Made by a program: the position numbers and the translations under genes | Source: Actinomycetota bacterium | GTDB taxonomy: Bacteria > Actinomycetota > Geothermincolia > Fen-727 > Anoxymicrobiaceae | NCBI GenBank assembly: GCA_043807425.1 | Contig: JAZDFZ010000021.1 | Span: 574 to 64,573, forward strand | DNA: 64,000 nt | Direction of reading: 5' to 3' | The notes under the pieces: model-generated | What the model saw: the letters and a program-made list of their open reading frames with translations, nothing else | The model's database searches: none | Told to the model about the DNA's origin: nothing | Shown: one piece after another, positions 1,762-30,171 of the stretch | How the letters are laid out: the number at the start of each line of letters is the position of its first letter | Position numbering within the stretch: position 1 is the first letter of the stretch

Positions 1762-1953
1762 ATGGACTGTCCGAGGACCGAGGAGAACCTGGAGTTCTGC
1801 AACTGCACCTACGAGCCGTGCAGCCGCAAGGGCCGGTGCTGCGAGTGCGTGCGCTACCACGTGACGAAACGGCAGCTGCCGGCCTGTGCGTTCCCGCCCG
1901 AGGCCGAGCGCACCTACGACCGCTCCTTCGAATGCTTCAAGCGCAGCGTCTGA
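1762..1953 (+). CDS. Small Cys-rich protein (DUF6485-like)
   Basis: AGGAGG RBS; CNCTYEPCSRKGRCCECVRYH pattern. Confidence 0.75.
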   Translation: MDCPRTEENLEFCNCTYEPCSRKGRCCECVRYHVTKRQLPACAFPPEAERTYDRSFECFKRSV

Positions 1954-2606
1954 TGAGTGTCGAACAGAGTGAGTCCGCGCGGGCGAGCTACAACAGGATG
2001 AGCCGCGTCTACGGCCTCCTCTCCAGCAGCAGCGAGAAGAAGTTCATCGAGGTCGCAATCCGGCAGGTGCTCGAGCCCCGGGATGGTGAGGTGATACTCG
2101 AGCCGGGGTTTGGCGCCGGGCAGGTCCTGTTGGCGCTGGCCCGGATGGTCGGCCCGACGGGCAGGGTCTCCGGCATAGACGTATCCGACGGCATGGTCGA
2201 GGCCGCCCGCAGGCGACTCGCGGGGAGCGGGGTCGAGGATCGAGTCGAGATACGACGGGGGGACGCCTCGTCCATGCCCTACGCCGACGCCACCTTCGAC
2301 GCGGTCTTCATGAGCTTCACCCTGGAGCTGTTTCCGGACGACGAGATACCGGTGGTCCTCTCGGAGTGCCGGCGCGTCCTGAAGCCCGGCGGCCGTATCT
2401 GTGTGGCCAGCATGTCGGCACGGGGGAAGAACGGTCTGATGATGCGGTCGTACGTGTGGGCACACCGCAGGTTTCCACACTTCGTGGACTGCAGGCCGGT
2501 ATTCGCGCGCAAGACGCTGGAGGACGCGGGGTTCGAGATACTGGACGAGAAGCTCCCGTCCATGTGGGGCCTCCCCGTCGAGATCGTCCTGGGTCGCTCC
2601 ACGTGA
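1953..2606 (+). CDS. Class I SAM-dependent methyltransferase (UbiE-like)
   Basis: ILEPGFGAG motif I, GIDVS, GDASSMPY, FDAVFMSF, VLKPGGR. ATG overlaps the upstream TGA. Confidence 0.85.
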   Translation: MSVEQSESARASYNRMSRVYGLLSSSSEKKFIEVAIRQVLEPRDGEVILEPGFGAGQVLLALARMVGPTGRVSGIDVSDGMVEAARRRLAGSGVEDRVEIRRGDASSMPYADATFDAVFMSFTLELFPDDEIPVVLSECRRVLKPGGRICVASMSARGKNGLMMRSYVWAHRRFPHFVDCRPVFARKTLEDAGFEILDEKLPSMWGLPVEIVLGRST

Positions 2607-2608
2607 TT

Positions 2609-2687
2609 CCCTCTCCCTTGACGGGGTAAGGGTCGGGGTGTCCTCTTTTCCCCTCCCCCTCGAGGGGGGAGGGTCAGGGTGGGGGTG
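2609..2687. repeat. REP-like family A palindromes (two copies) at the 3' end of the DUF559 gene
   Basis: Degenerate CCCTCTCCC-TTGAC-GGG..TCGGGGTG (2609-2640) and CCCCTCCCCC-TCGA-GGGGGGAGGG-TCAGGGTGGGGGTG (2650-2687). Confidence 0.85.
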
Positions 2688-3036
2688 TTCCCTCTTCGAG
2701 TACATCCACAATCGCCTCCAACACGGCATCCGTCCGTAGAAGAACATCGTCGTTCCAGAACCTCAGCACCGTAAAGCCTTCCTGATGCAGCCAGGATGAG
2801 CGTCTTTCATCATAGGCATTGTCGACATGCTGACCGCCATCCACTTCTATCACCAATCGTTCTTCCAGGCACACGAAATCGACAATGAAGTCTCCAAGCG
2901 GCTGCTGACGACGGAACTTGCACCCCAGCACCTGCCGCGCCCTCAGCAGTTGCCACAGGCACATCTCGGCATCAGTCTGGTTCTCGCGGAGCCCTCGTGC
3001 GAATGCAATTCGATCGGTCTTCGCCTTACTGCTCAC
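2674..3036 (-). CDS. DUF559 / Vsr-like (PD-(D/E)xK) endonuclease domain protein
   Basis: ARGLRENQTDAEMCLW, KFRRQQPLGDFIVDF, LVIEVDGGQH, GFTVLRFWNDDV. Confidence 0.92.
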   Translation of the reverse strand: MSSKAKTDRIAFARGLRENQTDAEMCLWQLLRARQVLGCKFRRQQPLGDFIVDFVCLEERLVIEVDGGQHVDNAYDERRSSWLHQEGFTVLRFWNDDVLLRTDAVLEAIVDVLEEGTPPP

Positions 3037-3041
3037 TGTGA

Positions 3042-3080
3042 CCCCCTCACCCCGACCCTCTCCCCCCAGGGGAGAGGGGG
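3042..3080. repeat. REP-like family A palindrome upstream of the DUF559 gene
   Basis: CCCCCTCACCCCGACCCTCTCCCC-CCA-GGGGAGAGGG, inverted relative to the 2650 copy. Confidence 0.85.
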
Positions 3081-3232
3081 ATTGTCGTATGCACTCACGA
3101 TCACTTGCTGCTGCTCAAAATAAAGCGCCGCGCCTTTGACCCGGAGGTCCGGCGCAGCGCCCTCTCCCTGATTCAGAGCCCCGCTCGAAGCGGAGCAAGC
3201 TAATCAGATATTAGCAGACCAGGCAAACTCTG

Positions 3233-5008
3233 TCAATCACCTTTGCCGAGAAAAAACTGGTGCGGGTCGAACATCCGCGCGAAGCGAAGCTCCTCGACCG
3301 AGGGCGCCTCGATCTCCACGACGTCGTCAGCCACCTCGAGATCCCAGCCGCAGGTCTCTTTCGCGCTCGCCAGGGCCGCCTCCCTGTCCCCGTCCGCCGC
3401 CGGGAAGTAGCCGGTCAGGACCAGCTCGCCGTCCCGCTTCTCGAGCAGCCCCCTGGTGGTCACCACCGCTGTGATGCGCTCCCCGGGACAGGTCACGTAC
3501 GGCACCTTCTCCACCAGCCGGAAAGGGAGGTGATCGGTCAGGATCACCACGTCCTTCGCACCGGCCGCCACGTCCGCCGCTCCGCCTGAGCCGACCAGCA
3601 GGAGCTTCATCTCGGGTATCGCGGTCGAGTTGATGTTGCCCCTCCGGTCCACCTGCCCGGCACCCAGCGAGCCGATACACCTGTTGCTGGGGGCGCCTAC
3701 CAGCGAGCCCAGGATGTCGTTGATGTCCGTGAGCATCGTGCACTGGGGGACGTTGCGCAGGTTGAAGATGAACGGGTCGGCCGGCTGCGGGCTGTAGCCG
3801 AAGAAACCGACCTCGGCGATGAGGTCGCAGTCGTGCCCCTCCTCCGCCAGGTTGTAGTAGGCCAGCCACGCCGCCAGGTTGCTCGCACCGACTCCAGCCA
3901 GGATGGTCCGGTAGCCGTTCTCCCGCGCTTTCCGCGCTATCACCCGGGCCCCCACGCTCACCATCATCTCCACGGGGTTGTACTCCGGTCCGGGGTTCAT
4001 CCGGGGGAGTGCATCCACCAGCTCGGAGGTCCAGGAGTCGAGAGCCGACTTGCCCTTGAGGTACCAGATCTTCTCGTGGCCGAGCTTCGCCAGGTACTCC
4101 TCGTGGTTCGCGCACCCCAGGATCCACTCGTCCATCCACTCCTGGAGCCTTGCCGGGTCCTTCGCCCTCTCCCGCAGATCCATCAGGAACTCGCGGTCCA
4201 CCTCGTAGCCCTCGACCTCGCGCTCCAGGCCGTAGTTGGACATCCCCGCAGGGTGCGAGCCCATGGGCACCACGCAGACGGCGTTCACGAGGTAGGCGGG
4301 CACCTTGACAAAGTGACTGAATCGCTTCAGGAACGAGTCGTCCACCAGCTTCTCGACGGTGACTATGGTGCCCTGCCTCGCGGAGCGCGCCGAGGCGGCG
4401 GTCTCCGCGTAGGGGGGGGCGCATATCAGGTTTCCGGCCGGGTCGGCCGCCCAGCCGTGCAGGAAGGTGAGGTCCGGGACCAGAGCGCGCACGAATCCTA
4501 CGGGTCCGTCCGGGGTTTCGACCTCGAAGTAATCCTCGTTCTCATCCGCGATGGTGGTGCCCGCAAGGGACGGCGCGGGGATGCAATCGAGCCCGAGCGC
4601 CCCGGCCAGCACCCTCAGCGAAAATGACAGTATAGTCCAGTGCTCCATCTCCACGGTGCCGTCCCGGTACGCCTGCTGGTAGACGGGATTGGGCCCCGGC
4701 ATGGGGTACGCGTCGCCGTAAAAGGTGCCGATGGCCTTCTTAATGATGCCCGCCGCAAAGACGGCCGACATGTCGCCCGTGAAGCCCAGAGTGCTGATGG
4801 TGAATCCCGGATCTGTCCCCCAGAACTGCCGAGCCAACTGCTGGTACACCGCGCAGGGCCTGGCGTAGCTGTGCCCGATGTGAATGAACATCCCCGGCCG
4901 CACGAAACGGTCGATCGCGTCCTCGAGCGACATCACCTTGTCCGCGGCGTGCCCGGCACGAGAGATGCGCTGCTGCCTGGCTACCGCCTCGTCGAAAGCA
5001 CCATACAT
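3233..5008 (-). CDS. Fused alpha/beta family I CoA-transferase (glutaconate CoA-transferase-like)
   Basis: KVMSLEDAIDRFVRPG N-terminus; GAGQVDRRGNINST and GSGGAAD in the C-terminal half. ATG at 5008 follows GAGGAG. Confidence 0.8.
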   Translation of the reverse strand: MYGAFDEAVARQQRISRAGHAADKVMSLEDAIDRFVRPGMFIHIGHSYARPCAVYQQLARQFWGTDPGFTISTLGFTGDMSAVFAAGIIKKAIGTFYGDAYPMPGPNPVYQQAYRDGTVEMEHWTILSFSLRVLAGALGLDCIPAPSLAGTTIADENEDYFEVETPDGPVGFVRALVPDLTFLHGWAADPAGNLICAPPYAETAASARSARQGTIVTVEKLVDDSFLKRFSHFVKVPAYLVNAVCVVPMGSHPAGMSNYGLEREVEGYEVDREFLMDLRERAKDPARLQEWMDEWILGCANHEEYLAKLGHEKIWYLKGKSALDSWTSELVDALPRMNPGPEYNPVEMMVSVGARVIARKARENGYRTILAGVGASNLAAWLAYYNLAEEGHDCDLIAEVGFFGYSPQPADPFIFNLRNVPQCTMLTDINDILGSLVGAPSNRCIGSLGAGQVDRRGNINSTAIPEMKLLLVGSGGAADVAAGAKDVVILTDHLPFRLVEKVPYVTCPGERITAVVTTRGLLEKRDGELVLTGYFPAADGDREAALASAKETCGWDLEVADDVVEIEAPSVEELRFARMFDPHQFFLGKGD

Positions 5009-29354: not shown

Positions 29355-29369
29355 GCTGACTCCCCATTT

Positions 29370-29408
29370 CCCCCTCCCCCTCGAGGGGGGAGGGTCGGGG
29401 CGGGGGTG
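29370..29408. repeat. REP-like family A palindrome, 3' of nth
   Basis: CCCCCTCCCCC-TCGA-GGGGGGAGGG-TCGGGGCGGGGGTG, near-identical to 2650-2687. Confidence 0.85.
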
Positions 29409-29412
29409 CAGC

Positions 29413-29446
29413 GTGAAAGAAAACCTCAAACCGTTTCTTTCATCAC
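29413..29446. repeat. REP-like family B single hairpin
   Basis: TGAAAGAAA-ACCTCAAACCG-TTTCTTTCA; encodes the last codons and the stop of nth. Confidence 0.75.
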
Positions 29447-30034
29447 CAGGTCGCAGAGCATGTTGACCGGGCAGATCTCGTGGGCGGGGTTGCGGGCGTG
29501 GCAGATCTCCCTGCCCAGCTCGACCAGGTTGAGGTGCATGCGGGGCCGGATCGCCGGGGGAACGATCTCTTCAAGGATCTCCTGGGCCTTCTCGGCGGTG
29601 GCGTCGCTGTCGATGAGCCCTATGCGCTTCGAGGTGCGGAGGACGTGGGTGTCAACCGGGAGGACCTTGCGGCCGTCGGCGAACATGAGCACGACGGAAG
29701 CGGTCTTGGGACCGACGCCGGGCAGCGAGGTGAGCCACTCGCGCGCCTCGGTCACCTTCATATCCCGGACGAACTCGAGCGAGAGGTCGCCCCGCTCCTG
29801 CTGTATCCGCGCAAGGATCTCCTTGATGGCGGCCGACTTCTGGTAGGACAGCCCGCCGGGCTTTATCGCCCGCTCGATGCGGCCGACCGGCGCCGCGGCG
29901 AGCTGCTCGATGGCGGGAAACGACTCTATCAGGCGCGCGTAGGCCAGGTTGTAGTTACGGCGCGAGGTGTTCTGCGAGAGCACGGCGTGGACCAGCTCGT
30001 GGACGATGTCGCGGCGTTCGGAGGGAAGCCTCAT
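29426..30034 (-). CDS. nth: Endonuclease III family (HhH-GPD) DNA glycosylase
   Basis: VLSQNT, LPGVGPKTA, VDTHV; Fe-S motif reads C-X6-H-X2-C-X5-C. Confidence 0.85.
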   Translation of the reverse strand: MRLPSERRDIVHELVHAVLSQNTSRRNYNLAYARLIESFPAIEQLAAAPVGRIERAIKPGGLSYQKSAAIKEILARIQQERGDLSLEFVRDMKVTEAREWLTSLPGVGPKTASVVLMFADGRKVLPVDTHVLRTSKRIGLIDSDATAEKAQEILEEIVPPAIRPRMHLNLVELGREICHARNPAHEICPVNMLCDLVMKETV

Positions 30035-30124: not shown

Positions 30125-30161
30125 CACCCCCACCCCGGCCCTCCCCCCTCGAGGGGGAGGG
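30125..30161. repeat. REP-like family A palindrome, 5' of nth (inverted)
   Basis: Reverse complement CCCTCCCCC-TCGA-GGGGGGAGGG-CCGGGGTGGGGGTG. Confidence 0.85.
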
Positions 30162-30171
30162 AGGAATCGGC

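What the first reader, a model, noticed from the sequence alone, without database searches (positions are those of the whole stretch)
2609..3080. DUF559 endonuclease gene bracketed by inverted palindromic repeats: candidate nuclease-driven mobile unit
Seen: the 363-bp gene sits between family A repeats in inverted orientation (2650-2687 and 3042-3080, plus a degenerate third copy at 2609-2640). The upstream repeat supplies the SD (GTGAGGGGG, 5 nt before GTG) and the downstream repeat supplies the last codons and TGA, so the unit is self-contained. Known: DUF559 is a Vsr-like PD-(D/E)xK fold, and this layout mirrors RAYT flanked by REPs. Inference: the nuclease may mobilise or process these repeats, with nuclease-free copies elsewhere as non-autonomous members.
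Basis: partly seen in the sequence, partly recalled or inferred. Interest (0 to 1): 0.7.

Follow-up and report, generated by a model that had tools for sequence, protein, structure and literature searches.

The report
DUF559 nuclease cassette with triplex-repeat ends
A small DNA-cutting-enzyme gene sits exactly between two inward-facing copies of a repeat (BoxC / "triplex motif") known since the 1990s with no known partner enzyme; the whole 0.5-kb block is missing from the closest relatives, and the same gene-plus-repeat layout recurs across bacterial phyla, which makes this enzyme family a testable candidate partner.

Summary
Window 2674-3036(-) encodes an intact 120-aa DUF559 (Vsr-fold) protein. 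Its Shine-Dalgarno lies in one repeat copy (3041-3079). Its last four codons and stop lie in an inverted copy (2650-2688), and a degenerate third copy is at 2609-2640.

The repeat is not new. It fits the published BoxC/PIT/TMECO "intrastrand triplex" consensus. There are about 77 copies in this uncultured actinobacterial (Geothermincolia-like) genome and only one DUF559 gene.

- The 518-bp block 2598-3115 is absent from the same-genus genome and from contigs of two other metagenomes.
- Related genera carry a different DUF559 cassette, a solo repeat or nothing at the same spot.
- Of 80 DUF559 loci from many phyla, 53 have a repeat on both sides, mostly tails inward, about 36-fold above background.
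- One relative has two 464-bp cassette copies whose homology stops at the repeat.
- DUF559 presence goes with repeat richness (odds ratio 30).

Against a simple driver model, the sister genome without DUF559 has as many private repeats, no target duplication is seen, and no biochemistry exists.

Best reading: a horizontally acquired mobile cassette whose nuclease probably acts on its repeat ends.

The parts
2598..3115 (.). The whole cassette: 518 bp that a single C replaces in close relatives. It holds three repeat copies, the DUF559 gene, 11 nt of left margin and 36 nt of right margin.
   Evidence: G001 C41 (95-96% identical flanks) joins window 2597 to 3116. Contigs of metagenome runs X4 (skip 2598-3115, 'C' between) and X2 (skip 2594-3116, 9 nt between) do the same.
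2674..3036 (-). DUF559 (Vsr-fold PD-(D/E)xK) gene, 120 aa, GTG start, TGA stop.
   Evidence: Pfam E=5e-40. PDB 3HRL E=1e-29. All 20 family-invariant residues are present, including D53, E64, D66, Q69 and H70. GC3 is 0.62 against a genome mean of 0.865, in the lowest 0.6% of ORFs.
3041..3079 (-). Upstream triplex-motif repeat (hairpin CCCTCTCCCC/GGGGAGAGGG, then TCG, then GGGTGAGGGGG). The tail points at the gene start and supplies the Shine-Dalgarno.
   Evidence: It fits the published TMECO consensus exactly. Solo copies elsewhere in the genome (for example C25:23456, C34:1171) match it at 100% identity over 37-40 nt.
2650..2688 (+). Downstream triplex-motif repeat in inverted orientation, tail towards the gene. 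Its third block and TCA spacer encode the last four codons and the stop on the minus strand.
   Evidence: Solo copies at C90:2863, C17:45984 and C58:21112 match it at 100% identity over 37-39 nt.
2609..2640 (+). Degenerate tandem third copy, 42 nt upstream of the 2650 copy. The hairpin is weak (-5 kcal/mol).
   Evidence: Tandem direct doublets with about 47-nt spacing occur at five other sites in the genome.
3080..3115 (-). 36-nt outer margin of the cassette between the insertion boundary and the upstream repeat. Role unknown.
   Evidence: It is part of the segment absent from G001, X2 and X4.
3116..3236 (-). Insertion site context: a conserved promoter-like site (TTGACA-17-TAATAT, 3236-3208) and about 95 nt ending in a GC stem plus TTTATTTT. 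The cassette starts right after this terminator.
   Evidence: No Rfam family matches. In other genera the same spot holds another DUF559 cassette (G004), a solo repeat (G010), a solo hairpin (G007), another palindromic element (G006), a toxin-antitoxin pair (G002) or nothing (G001, G009).
29369..29408 (+). Solo copy of the same repeat, without a nuclease, at the 3' end of nth.
   Evidence: Absent from the orthologous site in G001.
30126..30165 (-). Solo copy of the same repeat at the 5' end of nth.
   Evidence: Absent from the orthologous site in G001, while nth itself is present there.

Best explanation
Window 2598-3115 is a discrete, horizontally acquired 'DUF559 / triplex-motif cassette'. 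A 120-aa Vsr-fold nuclease gene has its ribosome-binding site and its last codons built from two inward-facing copies of the BoxC/TMECO repeat (hairpin plus G-rich third block).

Shown:
- The cassette is gained or lost as one block.
- It recurs with the same architecture across phyla.
- It has duplicated within at least one genome.
- Its non-coding ends are conserved far above neutral sites.

Inferred:
- The nuclease recognises the folded or duplex repeat at its own ends and nicks or cuts there. Host repair then copies the cassette into new intergenic sites just behind genes and terminators, in a homing-like way and without target duplication.
- The roughly 74 nuclease-free copies are probably derivatives or by-products that can persist and turn over without a resident nuclease.
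For: 1. Block presence or absence. G001 (same genus) and contigs from two other metagenomes carry the empty site with 93-96% identical flanks. The gene body has almost no depth in those runs.

2. Foreign composition. GC3 is 0.62 against 0.865 +/- 0.06, and body GC is 55.7% against 64.8%. The best homologues anywhere are only 63-68% identical and come from other phyla. The same-family genome G004 has a copy at the same spot that is only 58% identical.

3. Architecture is family-wide. In 80 loci from Proteobacteria, Chloroflexi, Nitrospirota, Desulfobacterota, Elusimicrobiota, Bacteroidota and Firmicutes:
- A strict structural repeat lies within 150 nt upstream in 61, downstream in 58, and on both sides in 53.
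- Tails point inward (62:9 upstream, 57:15 downstream).
- Density is 4.26 per kb against 0.119 per kb elsewhere in the same loci.
- Spacing to the ORF is tight.
- The two ends of one cassette match each other (0.897 identity) better than ends of other loci (0.744). None of 2000 permutations reached the observed value.

4. Intragenomic copying. G052 has two cassettes in adjacent gaps of a pur operon. Homology spans 464 bp and stops at the outer edge of the downstream hairpin. Between the copies dN/dS is 0.10 with dS 0.47, yet the non-coding ends differ at only 7 of 115 positions.

5. Intact enzyme related to a mobile nuclease. All invariant residues are present. The family profile hits PDB 3HRL (E=9e-44) and the I-Bth0305I homing-endonuclease domain 3R3P (E=4e-4).

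6. Co-occurrence. Of 14 repeat-rich genomes 6 have DUF559, against 7 of 287 repeat-poor ones (OR 30, p=4e-6). By family the split is 5/8 against 5/61 (p=0.001).

7. The genome's RAYT-type genes are not near these repeats.
Against: - No biochemical activity, cut site or binding is known for any DUF559 protein. Structure 3HRL is annotated only as 'endonuclease-like'.
- No target-site duplication or defined target appears at the G000 or G052 insertions.
- The empty site holds no repeat, so this event was not homing into an existing repeat.
- G001 lacks DUF559 yet has 40 repeats, and 14 of 25 assessable ones are absent from G000. Only 8 of 33 assessable G000 sites are absent from G001.
- Eight of 14 repeat-rich genomes in the phylum sample show no DUF559.
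- Solo-repeat differences between the two genomes come with local sequence replacement and are not clean insertions.
- Insertion against deletion at this locus is polarised only by parsimony and composition.
- Absence of a repeat-flanked gene from a MAG is weak evidence, because several repeats sit at contig ends.
Confidence: 0.55

Rival explanations
1. Passenger or guardian. The repeats spread by some other route (replication slippage, recombination or an unknown enzyme). DUF559 is cargo that rides between them. Alternatively it is kept because it processes hairpin or triplex structures that the repeats form, as a repair-type role and not a mobility role.
For: - Repeats turn over as fast in the DUF559-less sister genome.
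- Eight of 14 repeat-rich genomes lack DUF559.
- Published work links these repeats to local genome instability without any associated mobility gene.
- Strong purifying selection on the protein (dN/dS 0.10) fits a cellular function as well.
Against: - Start and stop overlap the repeats at fixed spacing in distant phyla. The ends are conserved about six times better than synonymous sites. Both are hard to explain for mere cargo.
- The gene is patchy and compositionally foreign, unlike a housekeeping repair gene.
Confidence: 0.2
2. RAYT-like domesticated partner. DUF559 is a single-copy resident enzyme that disperses or maintains solo repeats in trans, and the gene itself does not move.
For: - G000 has one DUF559 and about 74 solo repeats.
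- Repeat clusters lie next to the gene.
- DUF559 co-occurs with repeat richness.
- The layout is like RAYT between REPs.
Against: - The gene is itself an indel between near-identical genomes.
- It is duplicated with its ends in G052.
- It is patchy among relatives.
- The tree is star-like with no host signal.
- Repeat doublets here are direct tandems, not inverted REPIN-type pairs.
- G001 keeps intact, private repeats without the gene.
Confidence: 0.15
3. Regulatory or invertible module. The inverted repeats serve expression of DUF559 (SD sequestration upstream, terminator or stabiliser downstream), or they mediate inversion of the gene as a phase switch. Dispersed copies would be unrelated terminator-like elements.
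For: - 'DUF559 domain-containing protein' is 14-fold enriched among computationally predicted programmed-inversion targets.
- In G000 the hairpin side of solo copies faces a gene's 3' end in 48 of 59 cases. In co-directional gaps the orientation is 29:5.
- The hairpins are stable, at -11 to -13 kcal/mol.
Against: - No inverted form was seen.
- Published tests found no promoter or terminator activity for these repeats in E. coli.
- This reading does not explain block gain and loss or paralogous cassettes.
Confidence: 0.07
4. Coincidence. An abundant intergenic repeat happens to lie on both sides of a small gene.
For: Within this genome about 1.9 genes are expected to be bracketed by chance, and nth is bracketed too, by two independent copies.
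Against: - 53 of 80 loci in other phyla are bracketed with inward tails, a 36-fold local enrichment.
- All six short DUF559 loci in relatives are bracketed.
Confidence: 0.01

Closest known systems
BoxC / PIT element / TMECO intrastrand-triplex motif (Holder et al. 2015, PMC4666352, and the earlier work cited there)
   Same: The repeat fits the published consensus CCCTCNCCC-N3-6-GGGNGAGGG-N3-GGGNGAGGG. It is multi-copy and intergenic, and its sites are hypervariable between close relatives.
   Different: That paper reports no mobility gene and no pattern in the flanking genes, and no orientation bias in E. coli. Here the repeat forms the ends of a DUF559 cassette, and solo copies are strongly oriented relative to transcription. 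About half of the copies here are a second subtype, with third block GGGTGGGGG, that departs from the consensus by a compensated change.
REP/REPIN with RAYT (Bertels & Rainey 2011, PMC3116915; PMC3337134)
   Same: A small gene lies between copies of a dispersed palindromic repeat, many enzyme-free copies exist, and repeat clusters sit beside the gene.
   Different: The enzyme is a Vsr-fold PD-(D/E)xK nuclease, not an HUH/Y1 transposase. The gene itself is gained, lost and duplicated. Doublets are direct, not inverted. The repeats have a third (triplex) block.
EDxHD / Vsr-like homing endonuclease I-Bth0305I (Taylor et al. 2011, PMC3239194; PDB 3R3P)
   Same: It has a related nuclease domain (profile E=4e-4), belongs to the same PD-(D/E)xK clade as VSR/DUF559, and shows selfish presence/absence behaviour at a fixed site.
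   Different: I-Bth0305I is multidomain and lives in a group I intron. The protein here is the bare 110-aa domain, in an intergenic site, flanked by inverted structured repeats. The empty site was not shown to be a target.
Structure-only DUF559 proteins: N. gonorrhoeae 'endonuclease-like protein' (PDB 3HRL) and E. coli YcjD
   Same: 3HRL matches over residues 21-115 at E=1e-29. E. coli ycjD has a strict triplex motif 170 nt downstream and a degenerate one at its stop codon.
   Different: No function has been assigned to either. The E. coli copy is less cleanly bracketed than the one here.
Vsr very-short-patch repair endonuclease
   Same: Same fold clade. Pipelines often name the homologues 'very-short-patch-repair endonuclease'.
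   Different: There is no partner C5 DNA methyltransferase. The neighbouring methyltransferase is UbiE/COQ5-like and stays in G001, which lacks the cassette.

Membership tests
DUF559 (PF04480), VSR/DUF559 clade of PD-(D/E)xK nucleases | Match to the family model above the curated cut-off | tested here: met
   136 bits against 20.6, E=5e-40, covering profile positions 4-108 of 109.
DUF559 (PF04480), VSR/DUF559 clade of PD-(D/E)xK nucleases | Conserved acidic and histidine core (D...ExD..QH) intact | tested here: met
   D53, E64, D66, Q69 and H70 are among 20 columns invariant in 32 diverse homologues, and all are present.
DUF559 (PF04480), VSR/DUF559 clade of PD-(D/E)xK nucleases | Nuclease activity | not testable with these tools
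PDB 3HRL is annotated only as 'endonuclease-like'.
BoxC / TMECO intrastrand triplex motif | Consensus CCCTCNCCC N3-6 GGGNGAGGG N3 GGGNGAGGG | tested here: met
   The 3041-3079 copy fits exactly. Fifty-one genome copies fit a version that leaves third-block position 6 free. In 22 of them that position is A, as in the published consensus; in 29 it is G.
BoxC / TMECO intrastrand triplex motif | Third block mirrors the purine arm (G.G-C, A.A-T, T.A-T triplets) | tested here: met
   49 of 51 copies are either C-G.G or T-A.A at the three linked positions. Independent T...A...A changes occur at block ends in G004 and G052. Only two subtypes exist here, so few independent events.
BoxC / TMECO intrastrand triplex motif | Actual triplex formation | not testable with these tools
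   Only the hairpin can be computed: 9-10 bp, -11 to -13 kcal/mol. In vitro triplex formation was shown for the E. coli motif, but stable formation in vivo was not supported.
REP/RAYT system | Enzyme is an HUH Y1 (IS200-like) transposase | tested here: not met
   The protein is DUF559. The genome's five PF01797 genes have no such repeat within 15 kb.
REP/RAYT system | Gene flanked by copies of a dispersed palindromic repeat | tested here: met
REP/RAYT system | Mobile unit is an inverted doublet (REPIN); the enzyme gene is single-copy and vertically inherited | tested here: not met
   Doublets are direct tandems. The gene is an indel between congeners and is present in three copies in G052.
Homing endonuclease gene | Presence/absence polymorphism at one site, with a nuclease related to known homing enzymes | tested here: met
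Homing endonuclease gene | The enzyme cleaves the empty allele, and copying occurs by homologous repair | not testable with these tools
   The empty site carries no repeat, which argues against the repeat being the target in this event.
Insertion sequence / MITE-type transposon | Terminal inverted repeats plus target-site duplication and a transposase | tested here: not met
   Inverted ends are present (39 nt, 79%). No duplication is seen at the G000 or G052 junctions, and no known transposase domain is found.
Vsr-Dcm very short patch repair pair | Adjacent C5 cytosine DNA methyltransferase | tested here: not met
   The neighbour is a UbiE/COQ5-type methyltransferase. It persists in G001 without the cassette.

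The most novel reading that the evidence does not exclude
DUF559 / triplex-motif cassettes are a previously unrecognised class of autonomous bacterial mobile element.
- A bare Vsr-fold nuclease of about 110 aa is the only protein.
- Structured (hairpin/triplex) inverted repeats are the ends.
- Insertion occurs behind genes and terminators without target duplication.
- The thousands of orphan BoxC/PIT/TMECO repeats in several hundred bacterial genomes are its non-autonomous offspring.
Probability: 0.3. Interest if true: 0.9.

Novelty: new variant of a known kind. Interest (0 to 1): 0.72.

Why it matters
BoxC/PIT/TMECO repeats have been catalogued since the early 1990s. [quoted passage not shown] No protein partner, origin or means of spread has been found, and the main survey explicitly looked for one and found none.

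DUF559 is one of the most widespread 'unknown function' nuclease domains, with a solved structure and no assigned role.

A demonstrated link would do three things:
- give both orphans a function;
- add a second enzyme-and-repeat partnership, mechanistically independent of REP/RAYT;
- explain why DUF559 shows up among predicted inversion targets.

This window adds unusually clean natural-experiment evidence: a filled site against three empty ones, and one hot spot occupied differently in six genera. The hypothesis can be tested directly in E. coli K-12 with ycjD.

Tried and rejected
- A fuzzy-regex genome scan timed out and was replaced by blastn-short and nhmmer.
- My crude gene finder first mis-called the CoA-transferase region, then dropped DUF559 because of its odd codon make-up. 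I fixed this by hand. Gene-context counts are therefore approximate.
- Rfam gave no family for the repeat or the neighbouring candidate sRNA.
- Sequencing runs yielded only assembled contigs of relatives. No raw reads of this organism were available, so I could not search for excision circles or inverted forms.
- I tried to define solo-repeat insertion boundaries and target duplications from G000/G001 pairs. The differences come with local sequence replacement, so no clean ends emerged.
- I tested whether the DUF559-bearing genome has more private repeats than its DUF559-less sister. It does not.
- The DUF559 tree, built to decide whether the G000 and G004 copies at the same spot are orthologous, is star-like and unresolved.
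- Neighbour-gene co-orientation in 80 loci is 76% upstream and 61% downstream, not clearly different from ordinary gene order.
- Plasmids and phages as vectors: the short DUF559 type is in only 34 of 72,556 plasmid records (28 of the 34 non-mobilizable, several of chromosome size) and 2 of 50,697 phage records.
- Rejected readings: a Vsr-Dcm repair pair (no C5 methyltransferase), a RAYT system (wrong enzyme, Y1 genes far from the repeats), and a new repeat family (it is TMECO).
Full report
**1. What is in the window**

The ORF at 2674-3036 on the minus strand is 363 nt and 120 aa, with a GTG start. It is a full-length DUF559 domain:
- Pfam PF04480, E=5e-40, 136 bits against a cut-off of 20.6.
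- PDB 3HRL, an 'endonuclease-like protein' of Neisseria gonorrhoeae, E=1e-29.
- All 20 columns invariant across 32 diverse homologues are present, including D53, E64, D66, Q69 and H70.
- A profile of the family also reaches 3R3P, the catalytic domain of the Vsr-like homing endonuclease I-Bth0305I (E=4e-4). A published classification places VSR, DUF559, 3HRL and 3R3P in one PD-(D/E)xK clade.

Two 39-nt arms, 2650-2688 and 3041-3079, are 79% complementary. A degenerate tandem copy lies at about 2608-2640.

- The G-rich end of the upstream copy gives GAGGGGG five bases before the GTG.
- The last codons and the TGA are the reverse complement of the other copy's third block and its TCA spacer.

**2. 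What the repeat is**

Each copy has three parts:
- a pyrimidine arm, a loop and a purine arm, forming a 9-10-bp hairpin of -11 to -13 kcal/mol as single-stranded DNA;
- a three-base spacer;
- a G-rich third block.

This fits the published consensus of the BoxC / PIT / TMECO 'intrastrand triplex motif', CCCTCNCCC-N3-6-GGGNGAGGG-N3-GGGNGAGGG (Holder et al. 2015, PMC4666352).

Fifty-one genome copies fit a version of that pattern with third-block position 6 left free. They fall into two subtypes. The variable base of the pyrimidine arm, its Watson-Crick partner and the mirror position of the third block change together: C-G.G in 28 copies and T-A.A in 21, with 2 exceptions. Copies in other genomes show a further linked change at the block ends. 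An antiparallel purine-motif triplex predicts this, but with two subtypes it amounts to few independent events.

The repeat is therefore known, not a new 'family A'. The same paper states that no mobility function and no pattern in flanking genes was found.

**3. The repeat in this genome**

The window lies in a 3.07-Mb, 90-contig, 78%-complete MAG. Relatives' protein names place it in the Actinomycetota, near Candidatus Geothermincolia.

- nhmmer finds 77 distinct copies, 69 of them with hairpin and tail. Six lie inside ORFs and the rest are intergenic.
- The hairpin side faces a gene's 3' end in 48 of 59 scorable cases.
- In co-directional gaps the order 'stop, hairpin, tail, next start' outnumbers the reverse 29 to 5.
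- There is only one DUF559 gene.
- Only two of about 2630 called genes have a repeat within 120 nt on both sides: DUF559 and an nth-like gene at about 29426-30034. Chance predicts about 1.9, so the bracket in this genome is not significant on its own.
- The five Y1-transposase (RAYT/IS200-type) genes have no such repeat within 15 kb.

**4. The cassette is present or absent as a block**

- The same-genus genome G001 matches window 1818-2597 and 3110-4400 at 95-96% identity on one contig, with the two matches abutting.
- The alignment shows that window 2598-3115 (518 nt) is replaced by a single C.
- Contigs from two other environmental metagenomes carry the same empty site. One is a 6.8-kb contig at depth 34 with 'C' at the joint. 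The other is a 1.4-kb contig with nine other letters there.
- In those runs the gene body has essentially no depth, while the repeats recruit very large summed depth from other organisms.
- In the empty form the neighbouring methyltransferase ends ...GRPK* inside the terminator. In the filled form it ends ...GRST* on a stop supplied by the cassette's first bases.
- The empty site contains no repeat.
- No target duplication is visible.

The gene's composition is foreign: GC3 0.62 against 0.865 +/- 0.06 (lowest 0.6% of ORFs), and body GC 55.7% against 64.8%. Three empty alleles against one filled allele, together with this composition, favour insertion in the G000 lineage. Deletion cannot be excluded.

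**5. A hot spot**

The cassette sits directly after a conserved terminator. That terminator closes a roughly 95-nt stretch with its own promoter-like site, downstream of a CoA-transferase gene. No Rfam family matches it.

At this same position other genera of the family carry:
- G004: a different DUF559 cassette, whose protein is only 58% identical to this one, less than the 63-68% of the best hits from other phyla;
- G010: a solo repeat;
- G007: a solo hairpin;
- G006: another long palindromic element;
- G002: a toxin-antitoxin pair;
- G001 and G009: nothing.

A tree cannot resolve whether the G000 and G004 genes are orthologous, because it is star-like.

**6. The architecture is a property of the family**

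- Homologue protein sequences from many phyla end in tails such as PLPQGERG, PSPARGEGS or LPRKGGGG, which are translations of the same kind of repeat.
- All short DUF559 loci in relatives (G004, G015, G052 with three copies, and the G008 fragments) have hairpin plus G-tail upstream and C-tail plus hairpin downstream.
- I wrote a structural finder that needs a pyrimidine arm, its complement and a mirror third block. It returns only the four good copies in this 64-kb window.
- Applied to 80 DUF559 loci from species-representative genomes of many phyla, it finds a repeat within 150 nt upstream in 61, downstream in 58 and on both sides in 53.
- Tails point inward: 62:9 upstream and 57:15 downstream.
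- Density is 4.26 per kb next to the gene against 0.119 per kb elsewhere in the same loci.
- Spacing is tight: the median is 45 nt from the repeat to the codon of invariant R17, and 37 nt from the V105 codon to the repeat.
- The two ends of one cassette resemble each other (0.897) more than ends of other loci (0.744). None of 2000 permutations reached the observed value.
- E. coli ycjD has a strict motif 170 nt downstream and a degenerate one at its stop.

**7. Copying within a genome**

G052 holds two cassettes, 92% identical in protein, in two adjacent gaps of a pur operon.
- Homology spans 464 bp. It begins about 38 nt outside the upstream repeat and ends at the outer edge of the downstream hairpin. 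Outside that span the sequences are unrelated.
- Between the copies dN/dS is 0.10 with dS 0.47, yet the non-coding ends differ at only 7 of 115 positions.
- Both the protein and the ends are therefore under constraint, or the ends are homogenised.

**8. Co-occurrence**

- Among 61 relatives, strong short-type DUF559 occurs in G000, G004, G015 and G052, with fragments at contig ends in G008.
- In an even sample of 301 genomes of the phylum, 14 are repeat-rich (at least 9 hairpin-pattern hits with a clean control). Six of these have DUF559. Of the 287 others, 7 have it. The odds ratio is 30 and p=4e-6.
- Counted by family the split is 5 of 8 against 5 of 61, p=0.001.

The link is far from absolute. 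G001 has 40 repeats and no DUF559. Orthologous-site comparison shows high turnover in both directions:
- Of G001's assessable repeats, 11 are shared and 14 are absent from G000.
- Of G000's assessable sites, 25 look present and 8 absent in G001.

Both nth-flanking copies are absent from G001 while nth is present. The nth bracket is therefore two independent solo copies, not a composite unit. Solo-copy differences come with local sequence replacement.

**9. How it most likely works**

Shown:
- a discrete cassette with matched inverted structured ends;
- gain or loss of the cassette as a block;
- duplication with its ends;
- foreign composition;
- patchy distribution across phyla;
- an intact nuclease under purifying selection;
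- enrichment in repeat-rich genomes.

Inferred:
- The nuclease recognises the repeat at its ends and nicks or cuts there. Host repair then copies the cassette (homing-like, without target duplication) into sites just behind genes or terminators.
- Solo repeats are derivatives that persist on their own.

I put about 0.85 on 'mobile cassette as a unit' and about 0.45 on 'its own nuclease acts on the repeats'. The combined statement gets 0.55.

The main rivals are:
- a passenger or structure-processing role (0.20);
- a RAYT-like resident partner acting in trans (0.15);
- a regulatory or invertible module (0.07), which DUF559's 14-fold enrichment among predicted inversion targets makes worth keeping.

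**10. Novelty**

The repeat and the protein domain are each known. In the library searched I found no paper that links them. The nearest items in print are:
- the TMECO survey, which found no partner;
- a table row on predicted inversion targets;
- the fold classification.

Earlier notes of this scan report the same pairing in other genomes. I used them as leads only. I tested the TMECO identity and the E. coli locus myself.

The system works like REP/RAYT or a free-standing homing gene but fails the defining tests of both. I therefore file it as a new variant of a known kind: an enzyme-plus-repeat selfish unit.

Noticed in passing
window 3116-3236 (minus strand): Candidate small RNA directly after the CoA-transferase stop. 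It has a promoter-like TTGACA-17-TAATAT with TG, a conserved hairpin, a GGGAGAGGGCG box and a GC stem plus TTTATTTT. These are conserved in most related genera examined (G001, G004, G009, G010, G006, G007, G002), with no Rfam match. The position right after its terminator is an insertion hot spot.
   Followed up: partly
window 29369-29408 and 30126-30165 (nth-like gene at about 29426-30034, minus strand): The nth-like gene is bracketed by the same repeats in the same inward orientation. Both copies are absent from the orthologous sites of the same-genus genome, while nth is present there. These are two independent solo copies, not a cargo unit.
   Followed up: yes
window 1762-1953 (+) and 1818-2606 (+): A small Cys-rich ORF (63 aa, several CxxC-like pairs) is conserved next to the CoA-transferase locus in the relatives examined. 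In G000 and G001 it overlaps the 5' part of a UbiE/COQ5-type methyltransferase ORF that G004 and G009 lack at this locus.
   Followed up: no
G000 contig ends (C31:31, C32:1, C42:1, C51:20, C73:1): Several repeat copies sit exactly at contig ends, so the repeat breaks short-read assemblies. Repeat-flanked genes such as DUF559 may be under-represented in MAGs. In G008 the DUF559 gene is split over two contig ends.
   Followed up: partly
L036 (G006), same intergenic spot: A different palindromic element with long terminal inverted repeats (GGGGACGGACCCCTTAAGTTAAGTCA...TGACTTAACTTAAGGGGTCCGTCCCC) occupies the hot spot in G006. In G002 an AbrB/PIN-type toxin-antitoxin pair does.
   Followed up: no
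G000 C4:8016-8060: Next to one solo repeat there is a 17-nt tandem duplication that contains GGGGTCAGGCAC.
   Followed up: no
L002/L017 (G052 C1:770154 and 772430): Two DUF559 cassettes lie in the purD|purE and purE/K|purC gaps, co-oriented with the operon. Each has an extra 7-bp-stem hairpin (GACTCCC...GGGAGTC) outside the upstream repeat that is part of the duplicated unit.
   Followed up: partly
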